Of a stretch of 64,000 nucleotides of DNA, positions 56 to 8,352 are shown one piece after another. Numbering within the stretch: the stretch's first letter is position 1; each line of letters starts with the position of its first letter. The notes under the pieces were generated by a model, which saw only the letters and a list, made by a program, of their open reading frames with translations, made no database searches and was not told the DNA's origin. The stretch covers positions 14,681 through 78,680 of the forward strand of contig QZJK01000006.1 in the NCBI GenBank assembly GCA_003599295.1, read 5' to 3'. The position numbers were made by a program, and so were the translations under genes. The DNA is from Candidatus Parcubacteria bacterium. Lineage in GTDB: Bacteria > Patescibacteriota > Minisyncoccia > Phycocordibacterales > UBA2100.

Positions 56-126
56 CGGGATGTCGTATAGTGGTAGTACGCAAGCATGGGGTGCTTGTAG
101 CCCGAGTTCGATTCTCGGCATCCCGA
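56..126 (+). tRNA. tRNA-Pro(GGG)
   Basis: Acceptor cgggatg/catcccg (C1:G72). U8, D-loop with GG, anticodon stem caagc/gcttg with loop atGGGgt (G37). T-arm ccgag/ttcgatt/ctcgg. Folded by hand. Confidence 0.6.
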
Positions 127-298
127 ACGAACGAAGTGAGAGAGGGATGAGCGAAGCCGCGCTTCGCGTCCGAGTCGCATGTCCCCGTGGAGGAAGGAAT
201 GGGAAACCGAAAGGTGTCCCAGACGGGGGTCGGGGGCATGGGCTCGGTGTCCCGAACGTAGACGCATGTTTTTTGCTAGTGTATTCTGTGCGTGCTTA

Positions 299-369
299 GG
301 GCTTATAGTAAAGTGGCATTACGCGGCATTCGCATTGCCGAGTCCCGGGTTCGATTCCCGGTAAGTCCA
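299..369 (+). tRNA. tRNA-Ala(CGC)
   Basis: Acceptor gggctta/taagtcc gives a G3:U70 wobble, the Ala identity element. D-stem gtaa/ttac. Anticodon stem cggca/tgccg with loop ttCGCat. T-arm ccggg/ttcgatt/cccgg. Confidence 0.65.
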
Positions 370-415
370 CAAACAGCATTCCATTCGCGCCTTTTTCTGC
401 TATACTGCTTTCCTA

Positions 416-1372
416 ATGGACTACCGCGTCTTCAGCCTTGGCTCGAATGACGGTCTCGCGACGAAGATCGCAGAAACGCTGGGAATGCCGCTGGGCCAAG
501 TGAAGTGCAGAGCGTTCTCCGACGGCGAACAGCACGTGCAGTTCCTCGAAAATCTTCGCGGCAAGAATATCTTTCTCATTCAGTCGACGAATCCTCCGGC
601 GGAGAATTGGATACGGCTTCTTCTTGCGATAGATGCGGCACGTGGCGCTTCTGCCCGCGAAATAACCGCAGTCATACCATACTTCGGCTACTCACGGCAG
701 GATAGGAAAGCTCGACCGCGCGAACCGATTTCCGCGCGGATGTTCGCGGAGGCCCTCGAATCCGTCGGCGCGAACCGCATTCTTACGATGGACCTTCACA
801 ATGACGCCATCGGCGGTTTTTTCCGCGAGGCGAACGTAGACTATCTGTACGCGCGGCCGGTATTTCTCAACTATTTCCGCGATTATTTCAAAGAAGCGCT
901 CAAAAAAGATGACCTAGTCGTCGTATCACCGGATGCCGGAGGCACTGTTCGCGCCCAATCCTATGCGCGGCGTCTTATGAAATCCGCAGACCTCGCCATC
1001 ATCCACAAGGAGCGAGAGATACCCAACAAAGTCGCGCGCATGAAGCTCGCCGGAGACGTGAAAGGAAAAATTGCACTCATCGTGGACGATATGGCGGACA
1101 CCTGCGGCACCTTGGCGCGCGCAGTTGAACTGCTCGTCGAAAACGGCGCAACGGAAGTTTACGCGGCCGCGACGCACGGCATTCTTTCGGGAGACGCGAT
1201 ACAAACGTTGGAGTCTTCCGCCATTAAACGCGTCTTTATCACTGACACAGTGTCCACCGACCGCGAACTTGGTTCGAAAGTGGAAGTCGTATCAGTGGGA
1301 AAGACCTTCGGAGAAGCAATAGACCGTATCGAAAGCGGCGAATCTTTAAGCGCATTGTTTGAAACGGAGTAG
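416..1372 (+). CDS. prs: ribose-phosphate pyrophosphokinase
   Basis: 318-aa ORF with a typical Prs N-terminus (MDYRVFSLGSN...IAETLG...FSDGE) and a PRPP-binding region (IALIVDDMADTCGT). Confidence 0.9.
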   Translation: MDYRVFSLGSNDGLATKIAETLGMPLGQVKCRAFSDGEQHVQFLENLRGKNIFLIQSTNPPAENWIRLLLAIDAARGASAREITAVIPYFGYSRQDRKARPREPISARMFAEALESVGANRILTMDLHNDAIGGFFREANVDYLYARPVFLNYFRDYFKEALKKDDLVVVSPDAGGTVRAQSYARRLMKSADLAIIHKEREIPNKVARMKLAGDVKGKIALIVDDMADTCGTLARAVELLVENGATEVYAAATHGILSGDAIQTLESSAIKRVFITDTVSTDRELGSKVEVVSVGKTFGEAIDRIESGESLSALFETE

Positions 1373-1593
1373 GAACACTCGGGGTATTGTCCCCACAGAA
1401 CCCGGATGCGCTTTCCCGCGAAGCGCATCCTTAGGTTCGACGCTCGGCTCGCGCTTCGCGCGAGGCCAAGCCCTCGCGTCTGCACAGGTTCCGCACGGAC
1501 AATACCCCTCGCTTGGAGTTGGAAGGGGAACGTCCCAGATGCTTTAATTGCGCGTCTGAGAAAAACGCGTAATTATGAGCGCGTGCGATACAC

Positions 1594-1665
1594 GCTCCCA
1601 TAGTTTAATGGATAGAACGTAAGCTTCCGGAGCTTATGATCGAGGTTCGATTCCTCGTGGGAGCA
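1594..1665 (+). tRNA. tRNA-Arg(CCG)
   Basis: Acceptor gctccca/tgggagc. D-arm tagtttaatggatagaac. Anticodon stem taagc/gctta with loop ttCCGga. T-arm gaggttcgattcctc. Confidence 0.65.
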
Positions 1666-1725
1666 CACGAATACAGTGAGTACCGTAAGCAAGTCCTCGT
1701 TTTGAACGTCTGTTATACTATACAT

Positions 1726-2190
1726 ATGACGAAAACATGGCTTCTCTTGGGTTTAGCGCTCCTTCTCGCGATAGTCGCGGGGTTTCTTTTGTCTCTGCCT
1801 TCACAAACTCCAAGTGGCGAGGTTTCCGCCATTTCTACATTTGAGGAATGTGCCGCGGCAGGCTACCCAATCATGGAATCGTATCCGGAGCAATGCATGA
1901 CGCCTGATGGCCGCACGTTCACTCGAGACATTTCAGGGGTGGGCGGTGGAGAGGACATAACATTCAACGGTTGCGCGGTCGCGGGTTGCAGCGGACAACT
2001 CTGTGTTTCGGCGGAAGAGGCTGAAGGCATTTTCACGACGTGCGAATTTCGACCGGAATATGCATGCTATAGAGAAGCTTCATGCGAGCCGCAAGCTAAC
2101 GGAAAATGCGGTTGGACGGAAACAGCTGAGCTCCGGCAATGCCTCGCGAATCCTCCAGCACTTGATGATAGTGAACCGCAGGTTTACTGA
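1726..2190 (+). CDS. cysteine-rich secreted/membrane-anchored hypothetical protein
   Basis: The ORF-track start at 1636 overlaps tRNA-Arg. The internal Met (MTKTWLLLGLALLLAIVAGF) gives a signal/anchor helix, followed by 8 Cys in about 120 aa. Confidence 0.45.
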   Translation: MTKTWLLLGLALLLAIVAGFLLSLPSQTPSGEVSAISTFEECAAAGYPIMESYPEQCMTPDGRTFTRDISGVGGGEDITFNGCAVAGCSGQLCVSAEEAEGIFTTCEFRPEYACYREASCEPQANGKCGWTETAELRQCLANPPALDDSEPQVY

Positions 2191-2340
2191 CGACGTAGAG
2201 CGAGTGAAATGCAAATGTACTCATTTGCATTTCCGAGCCGAGGAGACAGAAACTGGCGTAAACGTGATTGCGCTTTTGCGCAGGGAGTGCATTCCGACCC
2301 GCAGGGTCAACGCCCTGTGGTGTCGGAATGAGCCAGTTTA

Positions 2341-4014
2341 CTAAAGTCGGCACATTTTGTTAGGATGGGTCGCGCAGGGCCCATAGTATAGCGGTAGAAC
2401 GGTTCCATGGCATGGAACAGGTCGGGGTTCGACTCCCCGTGGGTCCACATCGTAGGAGTTGGTAGTTACCAACTCATTAAATAACCTTGTACTGCTTAGC
2501 GAATGAGCGGTTCGATAACCCTCATTTTGGAAATAGGGCAATTTTCCATCAAACAGGAAGAAAAAGAGCCGCTGCTTTTCGTAAGCAGTGACACTTTTCC
2601 ATATACTTACAGGGTTATTGAGAAGCCCCGTCGCCTTTTCGAGAGCGGTTCGATAAGGTACGCCAGGGTCATCATTTGCACCCATTCTGGCCTCGATACT
2701 GTCGACCTCTTTGGCCGTAGTCTCCATCTCTTTCTCGTACTCTCTCCTCACAGTGTCTGAGGACGTCTTCCGTGCCAGCTCAGCGAGCTGCTTAATCTTC
2801 TTTTTGAGATCGTCCGCACGCTCTTGCATAAGTGTCTTATTCCATTCGACATTGCGTAGCTCTTGTGCCCAAACACGATCAAATACAGTCGCAACAACCT
2901 GCCCAACATCTTGCTTGAGAGCCGTACCTGCGAGAAGTAGTATGAAATTATCCTCAACCTCCTGCTTGTGAAGCATTTTGCTATAGCGTGCACAGACTTT
3001 GTTCTGGCAGTAGTAATATCCATATCTCGCGCTGCGCCCTTTAGACCACGCCCCCGTTAACGGTTTGCCACAATCGCTGCAAACGACCAGCGACCTCATC
3101 GGGAAGTCCTCCGACGTTGTTCTACGAACTTTTCCCCGAATACTATCCTTGTTCAGCCGCTTTAGTATCTGCGCGTGCATTTCGGGCGAGATGATACCTT
3201 GATGCTTGCCTTTGCCGCGAGGTACCTTCCACGGTTTATATTCGATGTCACCGCAGAAGAAACAATCTTCGAGTAACTCGCGTGTTTGTGTGATGCATTT
3301 ATCCGGAGAGCGACCCTTCCAGAATCCGCGCTCTACGAGGAAACGGGCGACATCAATTTGCCGCGCAAGATTGCCGGTAGCAAAGCCTTCGAGTGCTTCT
3401 TTGACCACTCCGAGCCCTTCTTTGTTTGGCACTGAGAATTTCCCATGCAGAGGGTTCTTCACCATGTCGTATCCACGTTTCTTTTTGAAGGGCCAATAGC
3501 CCAGCTCGAGACGAGCTTTCATTTTTTGAATCACTTGGCGTCGGTTCTGGAGTCGTTCGAGCTTTGCCTGTGCTGCAAATATGGTCTCGGCGAACTCTCC
3601 TTCGGGTGAGTCATCGAAGCTGTAGTTGAGACAGTGCAGTAAAACATCTCTCGCCTTGAACGCTGCTCGGAGTTTGAAGTGGAACTCTGTATCGCGAGCG
3701 AACCGTTTGAGATCATCGAAAATCACCAAGAATTTTTGATGCGGGTTTGCGTCTATGTAGTCCAGCATCTCTTTCATTGCAGGGCGTCGCATGAAATCGC
3801 CGCCTCCGGTGAAGCTGTCCGGAAAGGTTGCCTCGTAAGGCACACGCAGTCGATGCTCTAGCTCGTCTTTGCATCGTCCCTCCTGGCTCTGGAGTCCTGT
3901 GCCTTCGGATTCCTGTCGCTTGCTTGATACCCGGACATACACGAGACCGATTCTTCCTTCGTATGGCGAAGTAGTACTGGGGACGACTGTTTCATTTTCT
4001 GTTTTATTCACCAT
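2341..4014 (-). CDS. large serine recombinase (resolvase/invertase N-domain, recombinase domain, zinc ribbon, coiled coil)
   Basis: N-domain GLVYVRVSSKRQ with catalytic Ser. Zn-ribbon CSDCGKPL...YYYCQNKVC. Coiled-coil E/K-rich segment. The start was chosen at MVNKTEN; Met codons up to 4128 are possible. The in-frame C-terminal tail (about 35 aa) is encoded antisense across tRNA-Ala(GGC). Confidence 0.8.
   Translation of the reverse strand: MVNKTENETVVPSTTSPYEGRIGLVYVRVSSKRQESEGTGLQSQEGRCKDELEHRLRVPYEATFPDSFTGGGDFMRRPAMKEMLDYIDANPHQKFLVIFDDLKRFARDTEFHFKLRAAFKARDVLLHCLNYSFDDSPEGEFAETIFAAQAKLERLQNRRQVIQKMKARLELGYWPFKKKRGYDMVKNPLHGKFSVPNKEGLGVVKEALEGFATGNLARQIDVARFLVERGFWKGRSPDKCITQTRELLEDCFFCGDIEYKPWKVPRGKGKHQGIISPEMHAQILKRLNKDSIRGKVRRTTSEDFPMRSLVVCSDCGKPLTGAWSKGRSARYGYYYCQNKVCARYSKMLHKQEVEDNFILLLAGTALKQDVGQVVATVFDRVWAQELRNVEWNKTLMQERADDLKKKIKQLAELARKTSSDTVRREYEKEMETTAKEVDSIEARMGANDDPGVPYRTALEKATGLLNNPVSIWKSVTAYEKQRLFFFLFDGKLPYFQNEGYRTAHSLSSTRLFNELVTTNSYDVDPRGVEPRPVPCHGTVLPLYYGPCATHPNKMCRL
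2377..2447 (+). tRNA. tRNA-Ala(GGC)
   Basis: Acceptor gggccca/tgggtcc with G3:U70. Anticodon stem gttcc/ggaac with loop atGGCat. T-arm cgggg/ttcgact/ccccg. Confidence 0.65.
2458..2473. repeat. perfect palindrome gttggta-GT-taccaac, 11 bp after the tRNA-Ala 3' end; candidate serine-recombinase crossover core
   Basis: Read directly from the sequence: 7-bp arms around a central dinucleotide. It lies inside the recombinase ORF tail. Confidence 0.3.
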
Positions 4015-4270
4015 ACGGTCGTAGTTCATCTCTAATAATACTCCTGCAAACGTTCTCGACATACCAAAGCCTTCTGGATATAAGGTCATCGGGTGTTGTC
4101 TCGTCGCACAGTAGACGGCGATACTCATGGACGGACATGACAGTATCGCCGCTTCCTACAGTGCTAATAACGAGACCGTATACGACTGCAATAATCGTTG
4201 CGTCCGACACCGACACTGTGTCGTGAACAAATACCGCGATAGTCCTATTTTCTTCTGTCTTTGTGTTCAT
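4004..4270 (-). CDS. small hypothetical protein upstream of the recombinase (possible directionality factor or leader)
   Basis: 88-aa ORF filling the gap between the 4289..4816 gene and the recombinase start. No recognisable motif. Confidence 0.2.
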   Translation of the reverse strand: MNTKTEENRTIAVFVHDTVSVSDATIIAVVYGLVISTVGSGDTVMSVHEYRRLLCDETTPDDLISRRLWYVENVCRSIIRDELRPYGE

Positions 4271-4288
4271 ACGGTCTCCGTGTCGTGT

Positions 4289-4816
4289 TTAGGTTTTGAC
4301 TCCGCCCCCTTGGTCGTTTTGACCCCGATTCTGGTACGCCTCGAGGGGTTTCGTGTGGACATACAGTTGCGCCAGGATCGACCTTTTCTCTTCCTGCGCA
4401 TAGTCGTCTTTATCGACCAGTTTTTTGAACCATCGCCGAATCAGATCGGGGTGGAAGTTCTGCCCAAGAATCGTGAGGGCGAAGTTTAAATAAGTGCTGT
4501 GGTTAGGGCGCTCACGTTCGAGCGCTGCAAACCGGCGTTCAATGCTTCTCATACGAGTTGTTTTATGACCGAGTAATGTCGCACGATTTGGTATTTCATA
4601 TTCATTTGCGCCATTACTTCCCGAGAACGACAAAAGGAGCACGCGCCTTCCGACGTGCTCCTCCGCATTCCCGCCCAACAAAAAACCCGAAAGCGACCGG
4701 CGAATGTCGATTCCGTATGGTGTACGAAGAGAATCGCCAACCGCTTTCGAGCGGCTTGTTCGGATTACCGACACATGATCCTCGTACACCATGTATCCAT
4801 CCTCTCTAAGTACCAA
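4289..4816 (-). CDS. hypothetical protein (element cargo)
   Basis: 175-aa ORF co-oriented with the recombinase. No recognisable domain. Confidence 0.4.
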   Translation of the reverse strand: MVLREDGYMVYEDHVSVIRTSRSKAVGDSLRTPYGIDIRRSLSGFLLGGNAEEHVGRRVLLLSFSGSNGANEYEIPNRATLLGHKTTRMRSIERRFAALERERPNHSTYLNFALTILGQNFHPDLIRRWFKKLVDKDDYAQEEKRSILAQLYVHTKPLEAYQNRGQNDQGGGVKT

Positions 4817-5022
4817 ACCCTAAATCGGCATTGCTTTGTGGATAACTCTCGCCGCTACTATCCCACAATAGGCCGCCTCCCGATGCTGTAAAAAATGCCC
4901 GGGTCTGAACGTATACGGTATCTTATGATTCCTTTTTGAGGCCGGAGTCCCACCCAAACCACCCCCACCCCAATGTCTCAGTAGGACTGGATGTGTGCAT
5001 TACCAGATAACGATGCACACCT

Positions 5023-5247
5023 ATGTACATTCAAGTACTACACCGCGAAGTGTGGTGCGACGTGGAGGGCAACTACGTGCCCACAGATGAGATTGTCGCG
5101 TACCGGGCGTTTAGTGAGGATGGTTTGATATTCGGTTACGGAGAGACCAAGGAGGAGGCAGAGGCCTGTCTGCAGCGTATTTTGTGGCGTATCGAACACC
5201 CCCTTGGTCCAAAATACCCTTGTCCTGCAAAGCCCTTGACACCTTGA
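5023..5247 (+). CDS. small HicB-like/UPF0150-like protein (weak)
   Basis: 74 aa. The pattern ...FSEDGLIFGYGETKEEAEACLQRIL resembles the HicB antitoxin fold signature. No HicA partner was identified. Confidence 0.3.
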   Translation: MYIQVLHREVWCDVEGNYVPTDEIVAYRAFSEDGLIFGYGETKEEAEACLQRILWRIEHPLGPKYPCPAKPLTP

Positions 5248-5315
5248 CTTTCTTATTGTTTGGGTGTACAATAAACACCGAGGAAGTCCTTTCACAGCAA
5301 TGGGAGAACGAGACT

Positions 5316-5813
5316 ATGGCCATTTCCACTTTGGCATTCATTGACTTCACCACCGCGGTGAAGCCCACCATCCACGATTTCTATCGATGGCAAGCGAAGG
5401 GTTTCGACGGCTTCGTCGGAACTTCAAGCCAATGCAGTCTGGAACTTCACAAGCCTGGCGGCAAATACTGGTGCACGTTGCACAATGGCATGTGGCACTA
5501 CGAAGGGGCAGCAGGTCGGCTCTTCGCTGCCGCACCTGTTGTGCCGATTTTCGCTGAGCTTGGTGAAGCGCAGGTGCACATGGTTCGGGGCGCTTTCGGC
5601 AAGTTCGTCGGCGGCAACGCTGTCACGGACTATCTCGCCAAGGAGACCGAGGCCGTCACCCGTATCCTCGAGATGGTGAGCAAATTCGAGGAGTTGTCCG
5701 GCGTAGCGTACTTGGAGGACGAGCGCGAGCGTCTGGCGCAAAAGCTGCTCCACGAACTGGCCCACAAGCCGGAGCACGAGCACTATCTCGACAAGCTCGC
5801 CAAAGCCGCCTGA
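5316..5813 (+). CDS. hypothetical protein in a high-GC patch
   Basis: Start MAISTLAF. Strongly GC-biased third codon positions, about 60% GC versus about 55% in flanking DNA. No known motif. Confidence 0.4.
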   Translation: MAISTLAFIDFTTAVKPTIHDFYRWQAKGFDGFVGTSSQCSLELHKPGGKYWCTLHNGMWHYEGAAGRLFAAAPVVPIFAELGEAQVHMVRGAFGKFVGGNAVTDYLAKETEAVTRILEMVSKFEELSGVAYLEDERERLAQKLLHELAHKPEHEHYLDKLAKAA

Positions 5814-5922
5814 GCGTCAGGCAAACCGAATTGGGAGGACGGTCATTTCCTCCCCTCTACTGAGATGACGACCCCAGCGTCGAAGTCTCTGCGAGATAGC
5901 ACATTCACATCAGCAAGGGAGA

Positions 5923-6462
5923 ATGCCAATGTTTGTCGACCACCCACCGGTGCCGAACTGTCCTGCACGTCAGGTCATCGTCATCGAGGAAAAGGACAAG
6001 CCTTATACCATCCTCTTCGTCGACCAAGTGGTCGAGAAGGCTCGAATGTTCGACGCCACCTCGCGTGACGCCGACAATGACGAGATCTTCTGGATCGTCT
6101 ACGGCAACGAGCCTCGGCGCGTCTGGGACATGACCGAATCGGCGTTGCGCAGCTCGCTGCGTCGCCCGAAGTCGGAGCGTTTGCCGAAGGAGCAGTTGCT
6201 CGCAATGGGCGACGATGCACCGCTCGGCGAAATCCTGGAATCATTCGAGTACGGCAGCAACCTGGACAACTTCGCTCGGCGCGAAATGCCGAGGGTCTGT
6301 CGTGAGCTCGAGGTCAACACGCTTGGCCAACTCCGGCAGCATAAACGCGCCGAGATCAGGGGGCCGCAGTGCTGCAGGGCTGGCCAAAGGACCCTGTCGT
6401 ACCTCGACGCCGTCCTGCGCGAGTTCGGCAAGCCCGATCTGCGCTACTACGAAAACGCCTGA
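5923..6462 (+). CDS. hypothetical protein with a C-terminal helix-hairpin-helix-like segment
   Basis: 179 aa. C-terminus ...LEVNTLGQL...AGQRTLSYLDAVLREFG resembles an RNAP alpha-CTD/HhH pattern. High GC. Confidence 0.35.
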   Translation: MPMFVDHPPVPNCPARQVIVIEEKDKPYTILFVDQVVEKARMFDATSRDADNDEIFWIVYGNEPRRVWDMTESALRSSLRRPKSERLPKEQLLAMGDDAPLGEILESFEYGSNLDNFARREMPRVCRELEVNTLGQLRQHKRAEIRGPQCCRAGQRTLSYLDAVLREFGKPDLRYYENA

Positions 6463-6612
6463 CGCCGAAGGAGGAACCAATGGCGCTCATTCGTGCCCCG
6501 CCCACTTCGAGACCACCCCTGAAAAGGTGGTCTCTTTTTTATTTACATACGCCTCTTTGGTCATGGAGCGCTTGCTTTCCAAGGCTCTAAAAAAGGAGTA
6601 GTCTGGCCTCAA

Positions 6613-7749
6613 ATGGACTATCGCGAAATCCGGGAATACCAAATAAAACAACTGGCAAAGAATGTCGCCGAGACACCGTGGCTTATCCTGCCCGGAGAGA
6701 ATAAGCTTACCCGCCGTGCTGTGAAGCTTAGTTTTATTAAAAGCCATACCGACCCCGATAAATTCGTAGGCGTCCATGCGGAGGTTCTATTTCAGAAGCG
6801 TAAAAACCAGAGGGAGCCGTGGCCCGCTCGGTTCGTAAATCTCACAAAGGTTCCCTCAGACTTCGGATTTAGGTTCGCTTTAGACTCAGCACAGACATAC
6901 GAACTCGCACAGGCGTTACAAGATGCTTACCCCATAGGTAGCGAAAAATTATCCTCCGGCAAGCGCACGGTGTTGCGCGGTATTGGCAAGGACGAGCTGG
7001 TGATCACGGATAAGAATAAGGTGGAGGCTCTCCAGCAACTCTCGAAGGTTCTTACAGAGGAAGACATAAATAAATGGATCAAGGAGAACTTGCACGCGCT
7101 CTCTGCAGATCTCGCACTTGCCCGTCTTTATCATGAGCGCAAGGCGAAAGTGGAGGAGTTTAGGAAAGCGCTCGAGCGAGATGAGGACGAAAACTTTTGG
7201 CAAAGGTTCCTCAAAGAGAACGACTGGATGTTTGGCACCGCGTGCGTGGAGATACTGAGCGAACGACGGCTCGGCATCCATCACACCACAGATTTTCCTC
7301 TCAAGACCCATGGCGGGTTTATGGATATTGTTGAAATAAAGCGTCCCGGGCTTTCTTTCTGGACTATGGCCAAGAGTGGAGGTCACTACAAGTACCGCAA
7401 CAAGTTCCTAATACCGCATCCCGAACTACAAGGTGCTCTTGCCCAAACCACGAAATATATTTTGCAGGCAGAGAAAAAGGTAAACGATAAGGAGTACATT
7501 GACGATCATGACGGTGTAATTCCACTCAAACCACGAGGCATTGTAGTGCACGGTAGAAGTAATAAATGGGGCGAGGAGGAATGGGAGGCTTTCCGCTTGC
7601 TTAATGACGAGATGCATACGGTTCAGATTCTGACCTTCGACCACCTACTCGCACAAGCCGACCGTATGCTCGCAGTAATGCAGGTGAAAGACGAGAATCC
7701 TCCACTAGAGGAGGTGGAGGATATTAACCCCGATGATATTCCGTTTTAA
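6613..7749 (+). CDS. Shedu-like (DUF4263) PD-(D/E)xK nuclease, putative anti-phage defence protein
   Basis: C-terminal half carries FWQRFLKENDWMFG, then TDFPLKTHGGFMDIVEIKRP (D...E.K catalytic motif), then VQILTFDHLL. These match the DUF4263 signature pattern recalled from Shedu SduA. Confidence 0.5.
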   Translation: MDYREIREYQIKQLAKNVAETPWLILPGENKLTRRAVKLSFIKSHTDPDKFVGVHAEVLFQKRKNQREPWPARFVNLTKVPSDFGFRFALDSAQTYELAQALQDAYPIGSEKLSSGKRTVLRGIGKDELVITDKNKVEALQQLSKVLTEEDINKWIKENLHALSADLALARLYHERKAKVEEFRKALERDEDENFWQRFLKENDWMFGTACVEILSERRLGIHHTTDFPLKTHGGFMDIVEIKRPGLSFWTMAKSGGHYKYRNKFLIPHPELQGALAQTTKYILQAEKKVNDKEYIDDHDGVIPLKPRGIVVHGRSNKWGEEEWEAFRLLNDEMHTVQILTFDHLLAQADRMLAVMQVKDENPPLEEVEDINPDDIPF

Positions 7750-8013
7750 TGCCCGTCCGAAGAATCGGATCAAAATCCCTGAAAACAGAGAATTTGCCAC
7801 CCCCAGGTCTTGTACTCCCCATATCTAATACCTGCTATGTGGTAATACCTTGTGGCGTTCATGGCTCCGCTGCAAGCAATTCCTGCAAATGAGGGGAAGC
7901 CTGGTAATGACCCCAGAACCGAGAAAGATAGGTTTTAGTGCGGTTCAATATTTGATACGCTGAGTCCACAGAACTACATCAAGTGCGACATGGCGTATGG
8001 TACCCTATAACGA

Positions 8014-8352
8014 ATGAAGGGAGAGGGAATGCATCATCTGCATCTGCGGAAACGCGTCTACAAAAAACTGGAGCCGTATCCGCATCCTGTAGCGTGGAAG
8101 CGCTATCTCGACTATTTAATGTATGTGGTTGCTATCGTTGCTCCTATCGCCCTTGTGCCCCAAGTCTGGAGCGTGTATGCGACAAAGAACGTTTCCGGTC
8201 TCGTTGTCGCGCCATGGATACTGCTCGGCGCCATGCACATACTATGGGCATTCTACGGAACGATACATCGCGAATTGCCGCTCGTGGTGACTTCAGTTCT
8301 CTTTGCCTGCATGAACTTCAGCCTCCTTATCGGCATTTTGCTCTTCAGATAA
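8014..8352 (+). CDS. PQ-loop (SemiSWEET-like) small membrane protein
   Basis: 112 aa with 3 predicted TM helices. PQ motif in TM1 (LVPQVWSVYATKNVSGL). Confidence 0.4.
   Translation: MKGEGMHHLHLRKRVYKKLEPYPHPVAWKRYLDYLMYVVAIVAPIALVPQVWSVYATKNVSGLVVAPWILLGAMHILWAFYGTIHRELPLVVTSVLFACMNFSLLIGILLFR

What the first reader, a model, noticed from the sequence alone, without database searches (positions are those of the whole stretch)
5023..7749. Co-oriented four-gene block ending in a Shedu-like DUF4263 nuclease
The last gene, a 378-aa ORF, has FWQRFLKENDWMFG, TDFPLKTHGGFMDIVEIKRP (a PD-(D/E)xK D...E.K motif) and VQILTFDHLL. These match the DUF4263 signature of Shedu SduA.
It sits inside a recombinase-bearing element and follows three small same-strand genes: a HicB-like protein and two high-GC unknowns, one with an HhH-like tail. 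That is more partners than classic single-gene Shedu, so this could be a variant or composite defence locus.
Basis: partly seen in the sequence, partly recalled or inferred. Interest (0 to 1): 0.65.

Follow-up and report, generated by a model that had tools for sequence, protein, structure and literature searches.

The report
Ordinary stand-alone Shedu nuclease gene
The 378-aa gene is a genuine but ordinary single-gene Shedu (SduA) anti-phage nuclease, carried as cargo on a small recombinase-bearing island in a Parcubacteria genome, and the three genes in front of it are unrelated neighbours rather than parts of a new multi-gene system.

Summary
Window 6613-7749(+) encodes a real SduA. It hits Pfam SduA_C at 6e-21 and PADLOC SduA at 4e-52. 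The profile of its family aligns end to end with solved Bacillus cereus SduA (8TI8, 1.9e-31). All five PD-(D/E)xK motif residues are conserved: E193, D227, E241, K243, Q278. The AlphaFold model's only significant PDB matches are 8TI9/8TI8. dN/dS against a 98%-identical copy elsewhere is 0.017. GenBank already lists the protein as a "DUF4263 domain-containing protein" (RJQ35050.1, Candidatus Parcubacteria bacterium).

The "composite four-gene locus" idea is not supported:
- None of 88 SduA-bearing loci carries a homologue of the three upstream ORFs.
- Homologues of the 177-aa and 165-aa ORFs occur in six other contexts (five and one), none with SduA.
- A strong intrinsic terminator (6509-6544, -16.9 kcal/mol) separates the 177-aa gene from sduA.
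- DNA similarity to the nearest copies covers only sduA plus about 25-45 nt of leader.
- GC3 differs sharply: 0.73-0.79 for the two upstream genes against 0.56 for sduA.

"HicB-like" has no HMM support. The "HhH tail" has only sub-significant RpoA alpha-CTD-like fold matches.

Verdict: a B. cereus-type (Type 1A) Shedu cassette on a roughly 5.5-kb serine-recombinase island beside tRNA-Ala. Low interest.

The parts
2377..2448 (+). tRNA-Ala(GGC). Probable left border and integration target of the island.
   Evidence: ARAGORN and Rfam tRNA at 55.5 bits. The recombinase gene abuts and overlaps it. Its role as a border is inferred.
2341..4128 (-). Large serine recombinase (integrase) of the island. 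The mechanical ORF's last ~36 codons are antisense to tRNA-Ala and the sequence just upstream of it.
   Evidence: Pfam Resolvase 1.3e-16, Zn_ribbon_recom 6.8e-6. PHROG_95 integrase 5e-55. NCBIfam XisF/CcrB/CcrC-like, below cut-off.
4004..4270 (-). 88-aa ORF of unknown function in the island. The ORF as listed overlaps the recombinase start.
   Evidence: No hit in Pfam, PADLOC, PHROGs or NCBIfam. This exact sequence is not in the protein collection.
4289..4816 (-). 175-aa ORF of unknown function in the island.
   Evidence: No family hit.
5023..5247 (+). 74-aa hypothetical protein (GenBank RJQ35047.1, C4556_00850). Not demonstrably HicB.
   Evidence: Exact match in NCBI. No HicB or other family hit even at E<=10. 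An exhaustive phmmer search found 19 hits: small unannotated proteins plus apparently spurious TPR-repeat matches.
5316..5813 (+). 165-aa hypothetical protein (C4556_00855). High GC3 (0.73). Preceded by a sigma-70-like site at 5244-5272.
   Evidence: Only 2 homologues among 5.8 billion proteins. The non-identical one sits after a Phage_VG64-domain gene, with no SduA. Promoter-like site 10/12. GC3.
5929..6462 (+). 177-aa protein of a small conserved family (the named members are from Parcubacteria). Confident novel fold with a weakly RpoA alpha-CTD-like C-terminus. GC3 0.79.
   Evidence: 15 homologues at 61-100% identity. Five other independent genomic contexts, none with SduA. AF2 pLDDT 84, pTM 0.74. 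No fold match with E<0.1 in PDB or BFVD; the alpha-CTD chain 3gfk_B has TM (target-normalised) 0.60 and probability 0.63.
6509..6544 (+). Intrinsic terminator between the 177-aa gene and sduA: 9-bp perfect stem, 6 GC pairs, then TTTTTTATTT.
   Evidence: Terminator scan. RNA fold -16.9 kcal/mol, z = -4.87, 0 of 200 shuffles as stable.
6568..6612 (+). Conserved leader and ribosome-binding site (AAAAAGGAGTAG) of the sduA cassette.
   Evidence: Alignment with L001 and L004 is conserved only from about 45 nt upstream of the ATG. blastn homology starts at 6589 (L001) and 6574 (L004).
6613..7749 (+). sduA, a Shedu nuclease of 378 aa (GenBank RJQ35050.1).
6613..6978 (+). SduA N-terminal domain (about aa 1-122): four beta-strands plus a helix. 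Homologous to the B. cereus SduA_N sensor/regulatory domain.
   Evidence: PF21407 is weak in this protein (0.034) but is hit by 38 of 70 aligned full-length homologues, best 2e-21. The family profile aligns to 8TI8 from residue 4. Model pLDDT is about 90 over residues 10-120.
7183..7650 (+). SduA_C / DUF4263 PD-(D/E)xK nuclease domain (aa 191-346). Motif codons: E193 at 7189-7191, D227 at 7291-7293, E241 at 7333-7335, K243 at 7339-7341, Q278 at 7444-7446.
   Evidence: Pfam coordinates. D227, E241, K243 and Q278 are invariant and E193 is >=90% conserved across 70 homologues. Residue-by-residue alignment to 8TI8. Motif definitions from Gu et al.. Codon positions.
7750..7997 (.). Non-coding right end of the island. 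Synteny with a related genome resumes at 7998.
   Evidence: L097 (86% nt identity) matches the window only from 7998 rightwards. Its 68 nt to the left match nothing in the window. No convincing att repeats were found.

Best explanation
Window 6613-7749 is a functional, self-contained single-gene Shedu defence cassette. It encodes a B. cereus-type ('Type 1A') SduA. An N-terminal SduA_N domain holds a C-terminal DUF4263 PD-(D/E)xK nuclease in check until foreign DNA is sensed, and the nuclease then cuts that DNA.

The cassette consists of about 45 nt of leader plus the ORF. It is cargo on a ~5.5-kb island (about 2449-7997) that also carries a large serine recombinase and lies beside tRNA-Ala(GGC) in a Candidatus Parcubacteria genome. 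The three co-oriented upstream ORFs are unrelated island passengers, transcribed separately from sduA.

Shown: family membership, conserved active site, purifying selection, lack of conserved partners, the terminator, and cassette-sized homology. Inferred: tetramer assembly, NTD autoinhibition, DNA cleavage, the anti-phage role, the island borders and its mobility.
For: Identity of the protein:
- Pfam SduA_C 6.1e-21; PADLOC SduA 4.2e-52.
- 130 homologues, all those with a Pfam call carrying PF14082 and/or PF21407, the two SduA domains.
- The family profile aligns to residues 4-380 of 8TI8 at 1.9e-31, and to E. coli SduA (8PS4) over the nuclease domain only, at 5.9e-10.
- Motifs I-IV (E193, D227, E241/K243, Q278) align with B. 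cereus E204, D249, E264/K266 and Q295, whose D249 and E264 mutants lose defence.
- The AF2 model (pLDDT 78) has as its only significant PDB matches 8TI9/8TI8 (E 9e-10, target-normalised TM 0.78-0.80), followed by FokI and EndoMS-type nucleases.
- SduA_N is hit by 38 of 70 homologues.

Functionality: dN/dS = 0.017 against L001 (98% aa, 89.5% nt identity).

Stand-alone status:
- 0 of 88 SduA loci carry orf74, orf165 or orf177 homologues.
- The eight closest loci (70-98% aa identity), seven independent contexts (L007 and L008 carry the same protein), all have different neighbours.
- Nucleotide homology is confined to 6574/6589-7749.
- A terminator lies at 6509-6544.
- GC3 discontinuity.

Island: recombinase plus tRNA, and a synteny break at 7998.
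Against: - No experiment shows defence, nuclease activity or the transcript structure.
- No promoter was recognised in the ~65 nt between the terminator and the RBS, so some read-through from upstream cannot be excluded.
- B. cereus octamer-interface residue Y315 aligns with D298 here, so the specific octamer-activation step may not apply.
- The island borders rest on a tRNA, one short related contig and composition. No att sites or empty site were found.
- The sampled SduA loci are mostly 30-45% identical, so a lineage-specific partnership limited to this one genome cannot be formally excluded.
Confidence: 0.88

Rival explanations
1. Composite or multi-component Shedu variant. One or more upstream proteins, for example the 177-aa protein with an alpha-CTD/HhH-like tail, act with SduA as sensor or regulator, by analogy with the two-gene KELShedu system (KELA DNA-binding protein plus KELB DUF4263 nuclease).
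For: All four genes are on the same strand with no opposite-strand gene between them. A two-component Shedu has been shown experimentally in E. coli (PMC12577705). The orf177 C-terminus weakly resembles the DNA-binding RpoA alpha-CTD. No clear promoter lies directly upstream of sduA.
Against: No co-occurrence in 88 SduA loci, nor in five other orf177 contexts and one other orf165 context. The closest sduA copy (98% aa) sits in a different element with different upstream genes. The intergenic gap is 150 nt and holds a strong terminator, against 3 nt in KELAB. GC3 is 0.79 against 0.56. This SduA already has its own full N-terminal regulatory domain.
Confidence: 0.04
2. The same nuclease biochemistry, but serving the mobile element rather than the host. 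SduA would act mainly in competition between mobile elements, excluding rival linear or replicating foreign DNA, or would stabilise the island, rather than defending against phage as such.
For: Several close homologues lie near serine or tyrosine recombinases or a Rep gene (L001, L003, L006, L007). Near-identical cassettes occur in two unrelated recombinase elements. [quoted passage not shown]
Against: Other close homologues (L002, L004, L005) show no recombinase in the DNA available. Tested Shedu systems protect hosts from phage. Being carried by a mobile element is typical of host-beneficial defence genes and does not discriminate between the two readings.
Confidence: 0.07
3. A decaying or inactive Shedu remnant: a pseudogene-like passenger with no current function.
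For: It lies on a small, mosaic island. The SduA_N Pfam hit in this protein is below threshold (0.034).
Against: The ORF is full length and the same 378-aa length as many homologues. All catalytic motifs are intact. dN/dS is 0.017 at dS about 0.7. The N-terminal domain model is confident.
Confidence: 0.01

Closest known systems
Bacillus cereus B4264 Shedu SduA (PDB 8TI8/8TI9; 'Type 1A' of Gu et al., bioRxiv 10.1101/2023.08.10.552793)
   Same: Near-identical length (378 against 380 aa). Same three-part layout: SduA_N, linker, then the DUF4263 nuclease. End-to-end profile alignment (1.9e-31). All PD-(D/E)xK motifs I-IV are conserved. Best structural match. Single-gene organisation.
   Different: Only about 19% identity in the structural alignment. 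Octamer-interface Y315 is replaced by D298. The host is a Parcubacteria (CPR) bacterium, not a Firmicute. No functional data exist.
Escherichia coli SduA (PDB 8PS4/8PS5; Loeff et al., bioRxiv 10.1101/2023.08.10.552762)
   Same: Shares the DUF4263 nuclease core (5.9e-10 over profile positions 221-354). Also a single-gene system.
   Different: The N-terminal domain does not align. That paper describes a DNA-end clamp that nicks at a fixed distance from 5' ends, which need not apply to a B. cereus-type NTD.
KELShedu two-component system (KELA + KELB; Sci Adv 2025, PMC12577705)
   Same: A DUF4263 nuclease preceded by a small same-strand gene. This is the only experimentally supported multi-gene Shedu found in the literature search.
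   Different: KELA and KELB are separated by 3 bp in a bicistronic operon and both are required. Here the gap is 150 nt with a strong terminator, and the upstream gene never co-occurs with SduA elsewhere.
Small tRNA-associated genomic islands with a large serine recombinase that carry defence cargo
   Same: A recombinase next to a tRNA gene, a handful of small unknown ORFs and one defence gene. The defence gene is exchangeable between elements: a 98% aa-identical cassette sits in L001 beside an unrelated serine recombinase.
   Different: No att sites, empty site or excision product were identified here, so mobility is inferred.

Membership tests
Shedu SduA (DUF4263 / PF14082) | Significant match to the SduA_C (DUF4263) profile above the curated threshold | tested here: met
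   PF14082 E=6.1e-21, 75.7 bits against a cut-off of 27, covering profile positions 2-159 of 159. PADLOC SduA PDLC00385 E=4.2e-52.
Shedu SduA (DUF4263 / PF14082) | PD-(D/E)xK active-site motifs I-IV (B. cereus E204, D249, E264/K266, Q295) present and aligned | tested here: met
   E193, D227, E241/K243 and Q278 align to those residues in the HMMER alignments to 8TI8. They are invariant or >=90% conserved in 70 homologues. Motif definitions come from Gu et al..
Shedu SduA (DUF4263 / PF14082) | Nuclease-domain fold superposes on solved SduA | tested here: met
   Foldseek top 7 hits are all 8TI9/8TI8 chains, E 9e-10 to 3e-7, probability 1.00, target-normalised TM 0.53-0.80. Superposition of individual catalytic atoms was not inspected.
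Shedu SduA (DUF4263 / PF14082) | Single-gene system with no conserved partner | tested here: met
   0 of 88 SduA loci share the upstream ORFs. Neighbours differ in all 8 closest loci.
Shedu SduA (DUF4263 / PF14082) | Metal-dependent DNase activity and protection from phage that depends on the catalytic residues | not testable with these tools
   Requires biochemistry and phage-challenge assays.
Type 1A Shedu (B. cereus-like, sPC4/Whirly-type SduA_N domain; Gu et al.) | N-terminal domain homologous to SduA_N (PF21407) | tested here: met
   The direct hit is sub-threshold (E=0.034). However, 38 of 70 full-length aligned homologues hit PF21407 (best 2.2e-21), and the family profile aligns to 8TI8 from residue 4. 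The model shows a four-strand sheet plus helix with pLDDT about 90.
Type 1A Shedu (B. cereus-like, sPC4/Whirly-type SduA_N domain; Gu et al.) | Homotetramer that is activated by octamer formation through the Y315 interface | tested here: inconclusive
   Y315 aligns with D298 here, so it is not conserved. Oligomeric state was not modelled.
Two-component KELShedu-like system | Small partner gene translationally coupled or closely linked to the DUF4263 gene and conserved with it | tested here: not met
   The gap is 150 nt with an intrinsic terminator, against 3 bp in KELAB. There is no co-occurrence elsewhere.
HicB antitoxin (for the 74-aa ORF) | Match to HicB/UPF0150 profiles and an adjacent HicA toxin gene | tested here: not met
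   No HicB hit in Pfam even at E<=10, and none in NCBIfam, PHROGs or PADLOC. Seven small homologues have no Pfam family. No neighbouring ORF has a HicA hit. Its fold was not predicted.
Large serine recombinase (integrase) genomic island | Resolvase catalytic domain plus recombinase and zinc-ribbon domains | tested here: met
   PF00239 1.3e-16 and PF13408 6.8e-6. PF07508 is weak at 0.026. PHROG_95 integrase 5e-55.
Large serine recombinase (integrase) genomic island | Defined attL/attR, or an empty site in a relative | tested here: inconclusive
   The right-hand synteny break at 7998 is supported by L097. No att repeats were found. The related contig ends 68 nt beyond the break.

The most novel reading that the evidence does not exclude
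In this one island the conserved, structurally novel 177-aa protein (alpha-CTD-like tail), possibly together with the 165-aa protein, modulates the adjacent Shedu. It could act as an element-encoded transcriptional regulator, or as an inhibitor that protects the island's own excised DNA. That would make this a lineage-specific regulated Shedu module in a CPR bacterium. The evidence argues against a conserved partnership but cannot exclude a local, recently assembled one.
Probability: 0.04. Interest if true: 0.5.

Novelty: new member of a known kind. Interest (0 to 1): 0.15.

Why it matters
It matters little beyond correct annotation. It adds one more uncharacterised B. cereus-type Shedu, already labelled DUF4263 in GenBank, to a family with thousands of members.

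Two modest points of value:
- It documents Shedu in reduced-genome Parcubacteria/CPR bacteria as an exchangeable, gene-sized cassette on mini serine-recombinase islands. A 98% aa-identical copy sits in an unrelated element.
- It is a worked example showing that co-orientation alone is not evidence for a multi-gene defence system.

Tried and rejected
- **Partner-gene hypothesis.** tblastn of all island proteins against 99 fetched loci (88 with SduA) found no co-occurrence.
- **HicB identity of orf74.** No hit in Pfam at E<=10, NCBIfam, PHROGs or PADLOC. An exhaustive phmmer search of 1.84 billion representatives gave only small unannotated proteins and TPR-repeat matches that look compositional.
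- **Viral origin of island genes.** Scans of viral contigs with orf177, orf165 and the recombinase found nothing.
- **att sites.** Direct and inverted repeat searches between 2300-2560 and 7740-8030 gave only chance-level 8-11-mers. A TG(G/A)GTCCACA match seen by eye, at the tRNA 3' end (about 2439-2450) and again at about 7962-7971, is not statistically meaningful.
- **Empty site.** The only related metagenome contig (L097) ends 68 nt left of the break, so the empty site could not be shown.
- **Conserved recombinase/tRNA overlap.** The recombinase's overlap with the tRNA was checked as a possible conserved feature. The best homologue (L039, 36% identity) has no tRNA nearby.
- **RNA families.** Rfam found only tRNAs in the window.
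Full report
**1. What is in the sequence**

The listed ORFs exist as described.
- On the + strand: 5023-5247 (74 aa); 5184-5813 (165 aa from the ATG at 5316, the model GenBank uses); 5923-6462 (177 aa from 5929 in GenBank); and 6613-7749 (378 aa).
- To the left, on the minus strand: a 175-aa ORF (4289-4816), an 88-aa ORF (4004-4270) and a large serine recombinase (2341-4128). The recombinase hits Pfam Resolvase at 1.3e-16 plus the zinc ribbon, and PHROG integrase at 5e-55. It abuts tRNA-Ala(GGC) at 2377-2448.
- To the right: a SemiSWEET-like membrane protein (weak Pfam hits only, below threshold), an unannotated secreted/membrane-looking ORF, and by eye from the translations guaA, mraZ, rsmH and ftsI.

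Exact-sequence look-ups place the window in a Candidatus Parcubacteria bacterium MAG, locus tags C4556_00850 to 00860. The 378-aa protein is already deposited as RJQ35050.1, 'DUF4263 domain-containing protein'.

**2. The 378-aa protein is a Shedu SduA**

- Pfam SduA_C (PF14082) matches residues 191-346 over the whole profile at E=6.1e-21, and 22 PADLOC SduA models match, the best at 4.2e-52.
- 130 homologues were found. All those with a precomputed Pfam call carry PF14082 and/or PF21407, the two SduA domains.
- In an alignment of 70 homologues, D227, E241, K243, Q278 and Y282 are invariant and E193 is at least 90% conserved.
- HMMER alignments to the solved B. cereus SduA pair these residues with E204, D249, E264/K266 and Q295. 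These are motifs I-IV defined by Gu et al., who showed that D249 and E264 mutants lose phage protection.
- The catalytically dead 8TI9 construct carries Ala exactly where the query has E241.
- A profile of the family aligns with residues 4-380 of 8TI8 at E=1.9e-31, so it includes the N-terminal domain. E. coli SduA (8PS4) matches only the nuclease core.
- 38 of 70 homologues hit SduA_N (PF21407).
- The AlphaFold2 model (pLDDT 78, N-terminal domain about 90) retrieves only SduA chains at significance (E down to 9e-10, target-normalised TM up to 0.80). FokI and EndoMS-like nucleases follow far behind.

This is therefore a B. cereus-type, 'Type 1A', single-polypeptide Shedu. It is under strong purifying selection. 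Against the copy in L001 (98% aa, 89.5% nt identity), dS is about 0.71, dN 0.012 and dN/dS 0.017.

**3. The upstream genes are not part of it**

(a) Conservation.
- The eight closest SduA loci (70-98% aa identity) form seven independent contexts, since L007 and L008 carry the same protein, and each context has different neighbours. These include a different serine recombinase with two small ORFs (L001), DUF350/Excalibur (L002), a recombinase plus a Rep gene (L003), an acetyltransferase (L004) and the interior of a type I R-M operon (L006).
- tblastn of orf74, orf165/209 and orf179 against 99 loci, 88 of them with SduA, found no homologue next to any SduA.
- Conversely, orf177 homologues (15 proteins, 61-100% identity; the named ones are from Parcubacteria) occur in five other independent contexts. 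One is near a CBASS cyclase, and others are between NUDIX and M48 peptidase genes, near glyoxalase/MFS genes, or near an amidase. None has SduA.
- The only non-identical orf165 homologue follows a Phage_VG64-domain gene.

(b) Transcription signals.
- The 150-nt gap between orf177 and sduA contains a textbook intrinsic terminator at 6509-6544. It has a 9-bp stem followed by TTTTTTATTT, folds at -16.9 kcal/mol, has z = -4.87, and none of 200 shuffles is as stable.
- A 10/12 sigma-70-like site lies in front of orf165.

(c) Extent of shared DNA. Similarity to the closest sduA copies begins about 25-45 nt upstream of the ATG, at a conserved AAAAAGGAGTAG leader, and ends at the stop codon. L001 also has a hairpin followed by a T-run just before that leader, judged by eye from the alignment.

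(d) Composition. GC3 is 0.73 (orf165) and 0.79 (orf177) against 0.56 for sduA and about 0.60-0.65 for host genes.

Together these results show a mosaic island into which a gene-sized Shedu cassette was inserted, not an operon.

**4. The minor claims**

- 'HicB-like' for orf74 has no support in any HMM library, even at E<=10. Its homologues from an exhaustive search are small unannotated proteins, and the other hits are TPR repeats matching its helix-rich C-terminal part. A fold-level resemblance was not tested.
- The 'HhH-like tail' of orf177 gets weak backing. The confident model (pLDDT 84, pTM 0.74) has no significant fold match. RpoA alpha-CTD entries recur at E about 1 in both PDB and BFVD.

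**5. The island**

- Left edge: tRNA-Ala. The mechanical recombinase ORF reads about 36 codons beyond the last non-tRNA base, through the antisense of the tRNA.
- Right edge: a related contig (L097, 86% nt identity) is collinear with the window only from 7998 rightwards.
- No att repeats or empty site were found, and no relatives of the island genes occur in viral contigs.

The borders (about 2449-7997, GC 0.516) and the island's mobility are therefore inferred.

**6. Mechanism (inferred from family knowledge)**

By full-length homology to B. cereus SduA, the protein most likely forms a DUF4263-mediated homotetramer. Its N-terminal and linker domains would keep the motif II loop (D227) out of the active site. 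Infection-associated nucleic acid would relieve this inhibition and lead to cleavage of foreign DNA without killing the host (Gu et al.). The octamer step is uncertain because interface residue Y315 aligns with D298 here. The end-clamp nicking model of E. coli SduA is less applicable because the N-terminal domains are not homologous.

**7. Comparison and novelty**

The closest known system is B. cereus SduA. The two-gene KELShedu system shows that multi-component Shedu exists, but it has a 3-bp bicistronic junction and both genes are required. That arrangement is unlike this locus.

The finding is a new, uncharacterised member of a well-known family, in a host group (Patescibacteria/CPR) where many other SduA genes are visible in public genomes. 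Interest is low.

Noticed in passing
L006:4600-12334; L039:6172-13723; also L037, L053, L022, L023, L046: SduA homologues are nested inside type I R-M operons. L006 has hsdM-DUF4145-hsdS-SduA-hsdR with overlapping stop/start codons, and its SduA is 71% identical to the window's. L039 (Pseudomonadales MAG) has hsdM-SduA-hsdS-NYN-hsdR-YgjP, followed by a serine recombinase 36% identical to the window's. In all, 8 of 88 SduA loci have hsd genes in the flanks. This may be a recurrent Shedu/type I R-M composite.
   Followed up: partly
window 2341-2448 (minus strand ORF against + strand tRNA-Ala): The serine recombinase ORF continues about 36 codons through the antisense of tRNA-Ala(GGC) before its stop. 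Integration next to the tRNA may therefore have created or replaced the recombinase C-terminus. The best homologue (L039) has no tRNA at its 3' end.
   Followed up: partly
window 5929-6462; L009-L014, L098, L099: The 177-aa protein belongs to a small, highly conserved family (61-81% identity; the named members are from Parcubacteria). Its predicted fold is confident (pLDDT 84, pTM 0.74) and has no significant match in PDB or BFVD. In L009-L012 it lies about 2 kb from a CBASS cyclase gene.
   Followed up: partly
L001:54-4265 compared with window 2341-7749: A 98% aa / 89.5% nt identical sduA cassette sits in a second island with a serine recombinase that shows no detectable similarity (tblastn E<=0.1) to the window's. 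Judged by eye from the alignment, it too is directly preceded by a terminator-like hairpin and the same ~45-nt leader. This suggests cassette exchange between elements.
   Followed up: partly
L003:4498-6885: In a metagenome contig carrying a 78%-identical SduA, a serine recombinase is adjacent to a gene with Viral_Rep (PF02407) and weak RNA_helicase domains. A Rep-encoding integrative element in a CPR-like context is unusual.
   Followed up: no
L015:2718-3810; L016:474-1566: The only non-identical homologue of the 165-aa ORF lies immediately downstream of a Phage_VG64-domain gene. This hints that orf165 is of phage or mobile-element origin.
   Followed up: no
window 2506-2519 and 2643-2656: A 14-nt exact repeat, GAGCGGTTCGATAA, occurs 138 nt apart inside the 3' part of the recombinase gene and encodes a repeated 'YRTA' peptide. 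A related GCGGTTCAATA lies at 7940-7950 near the right island end. Its significance is unclear and it is probably chance.
   Followed up: no
window 56-2448: Four tRNA genes (Pro-GGG, Ala-CGC, Arg-CCG, Ala-GGC) are interspersed with prs and a small secreted protein just left of the island.
   Followed up: no
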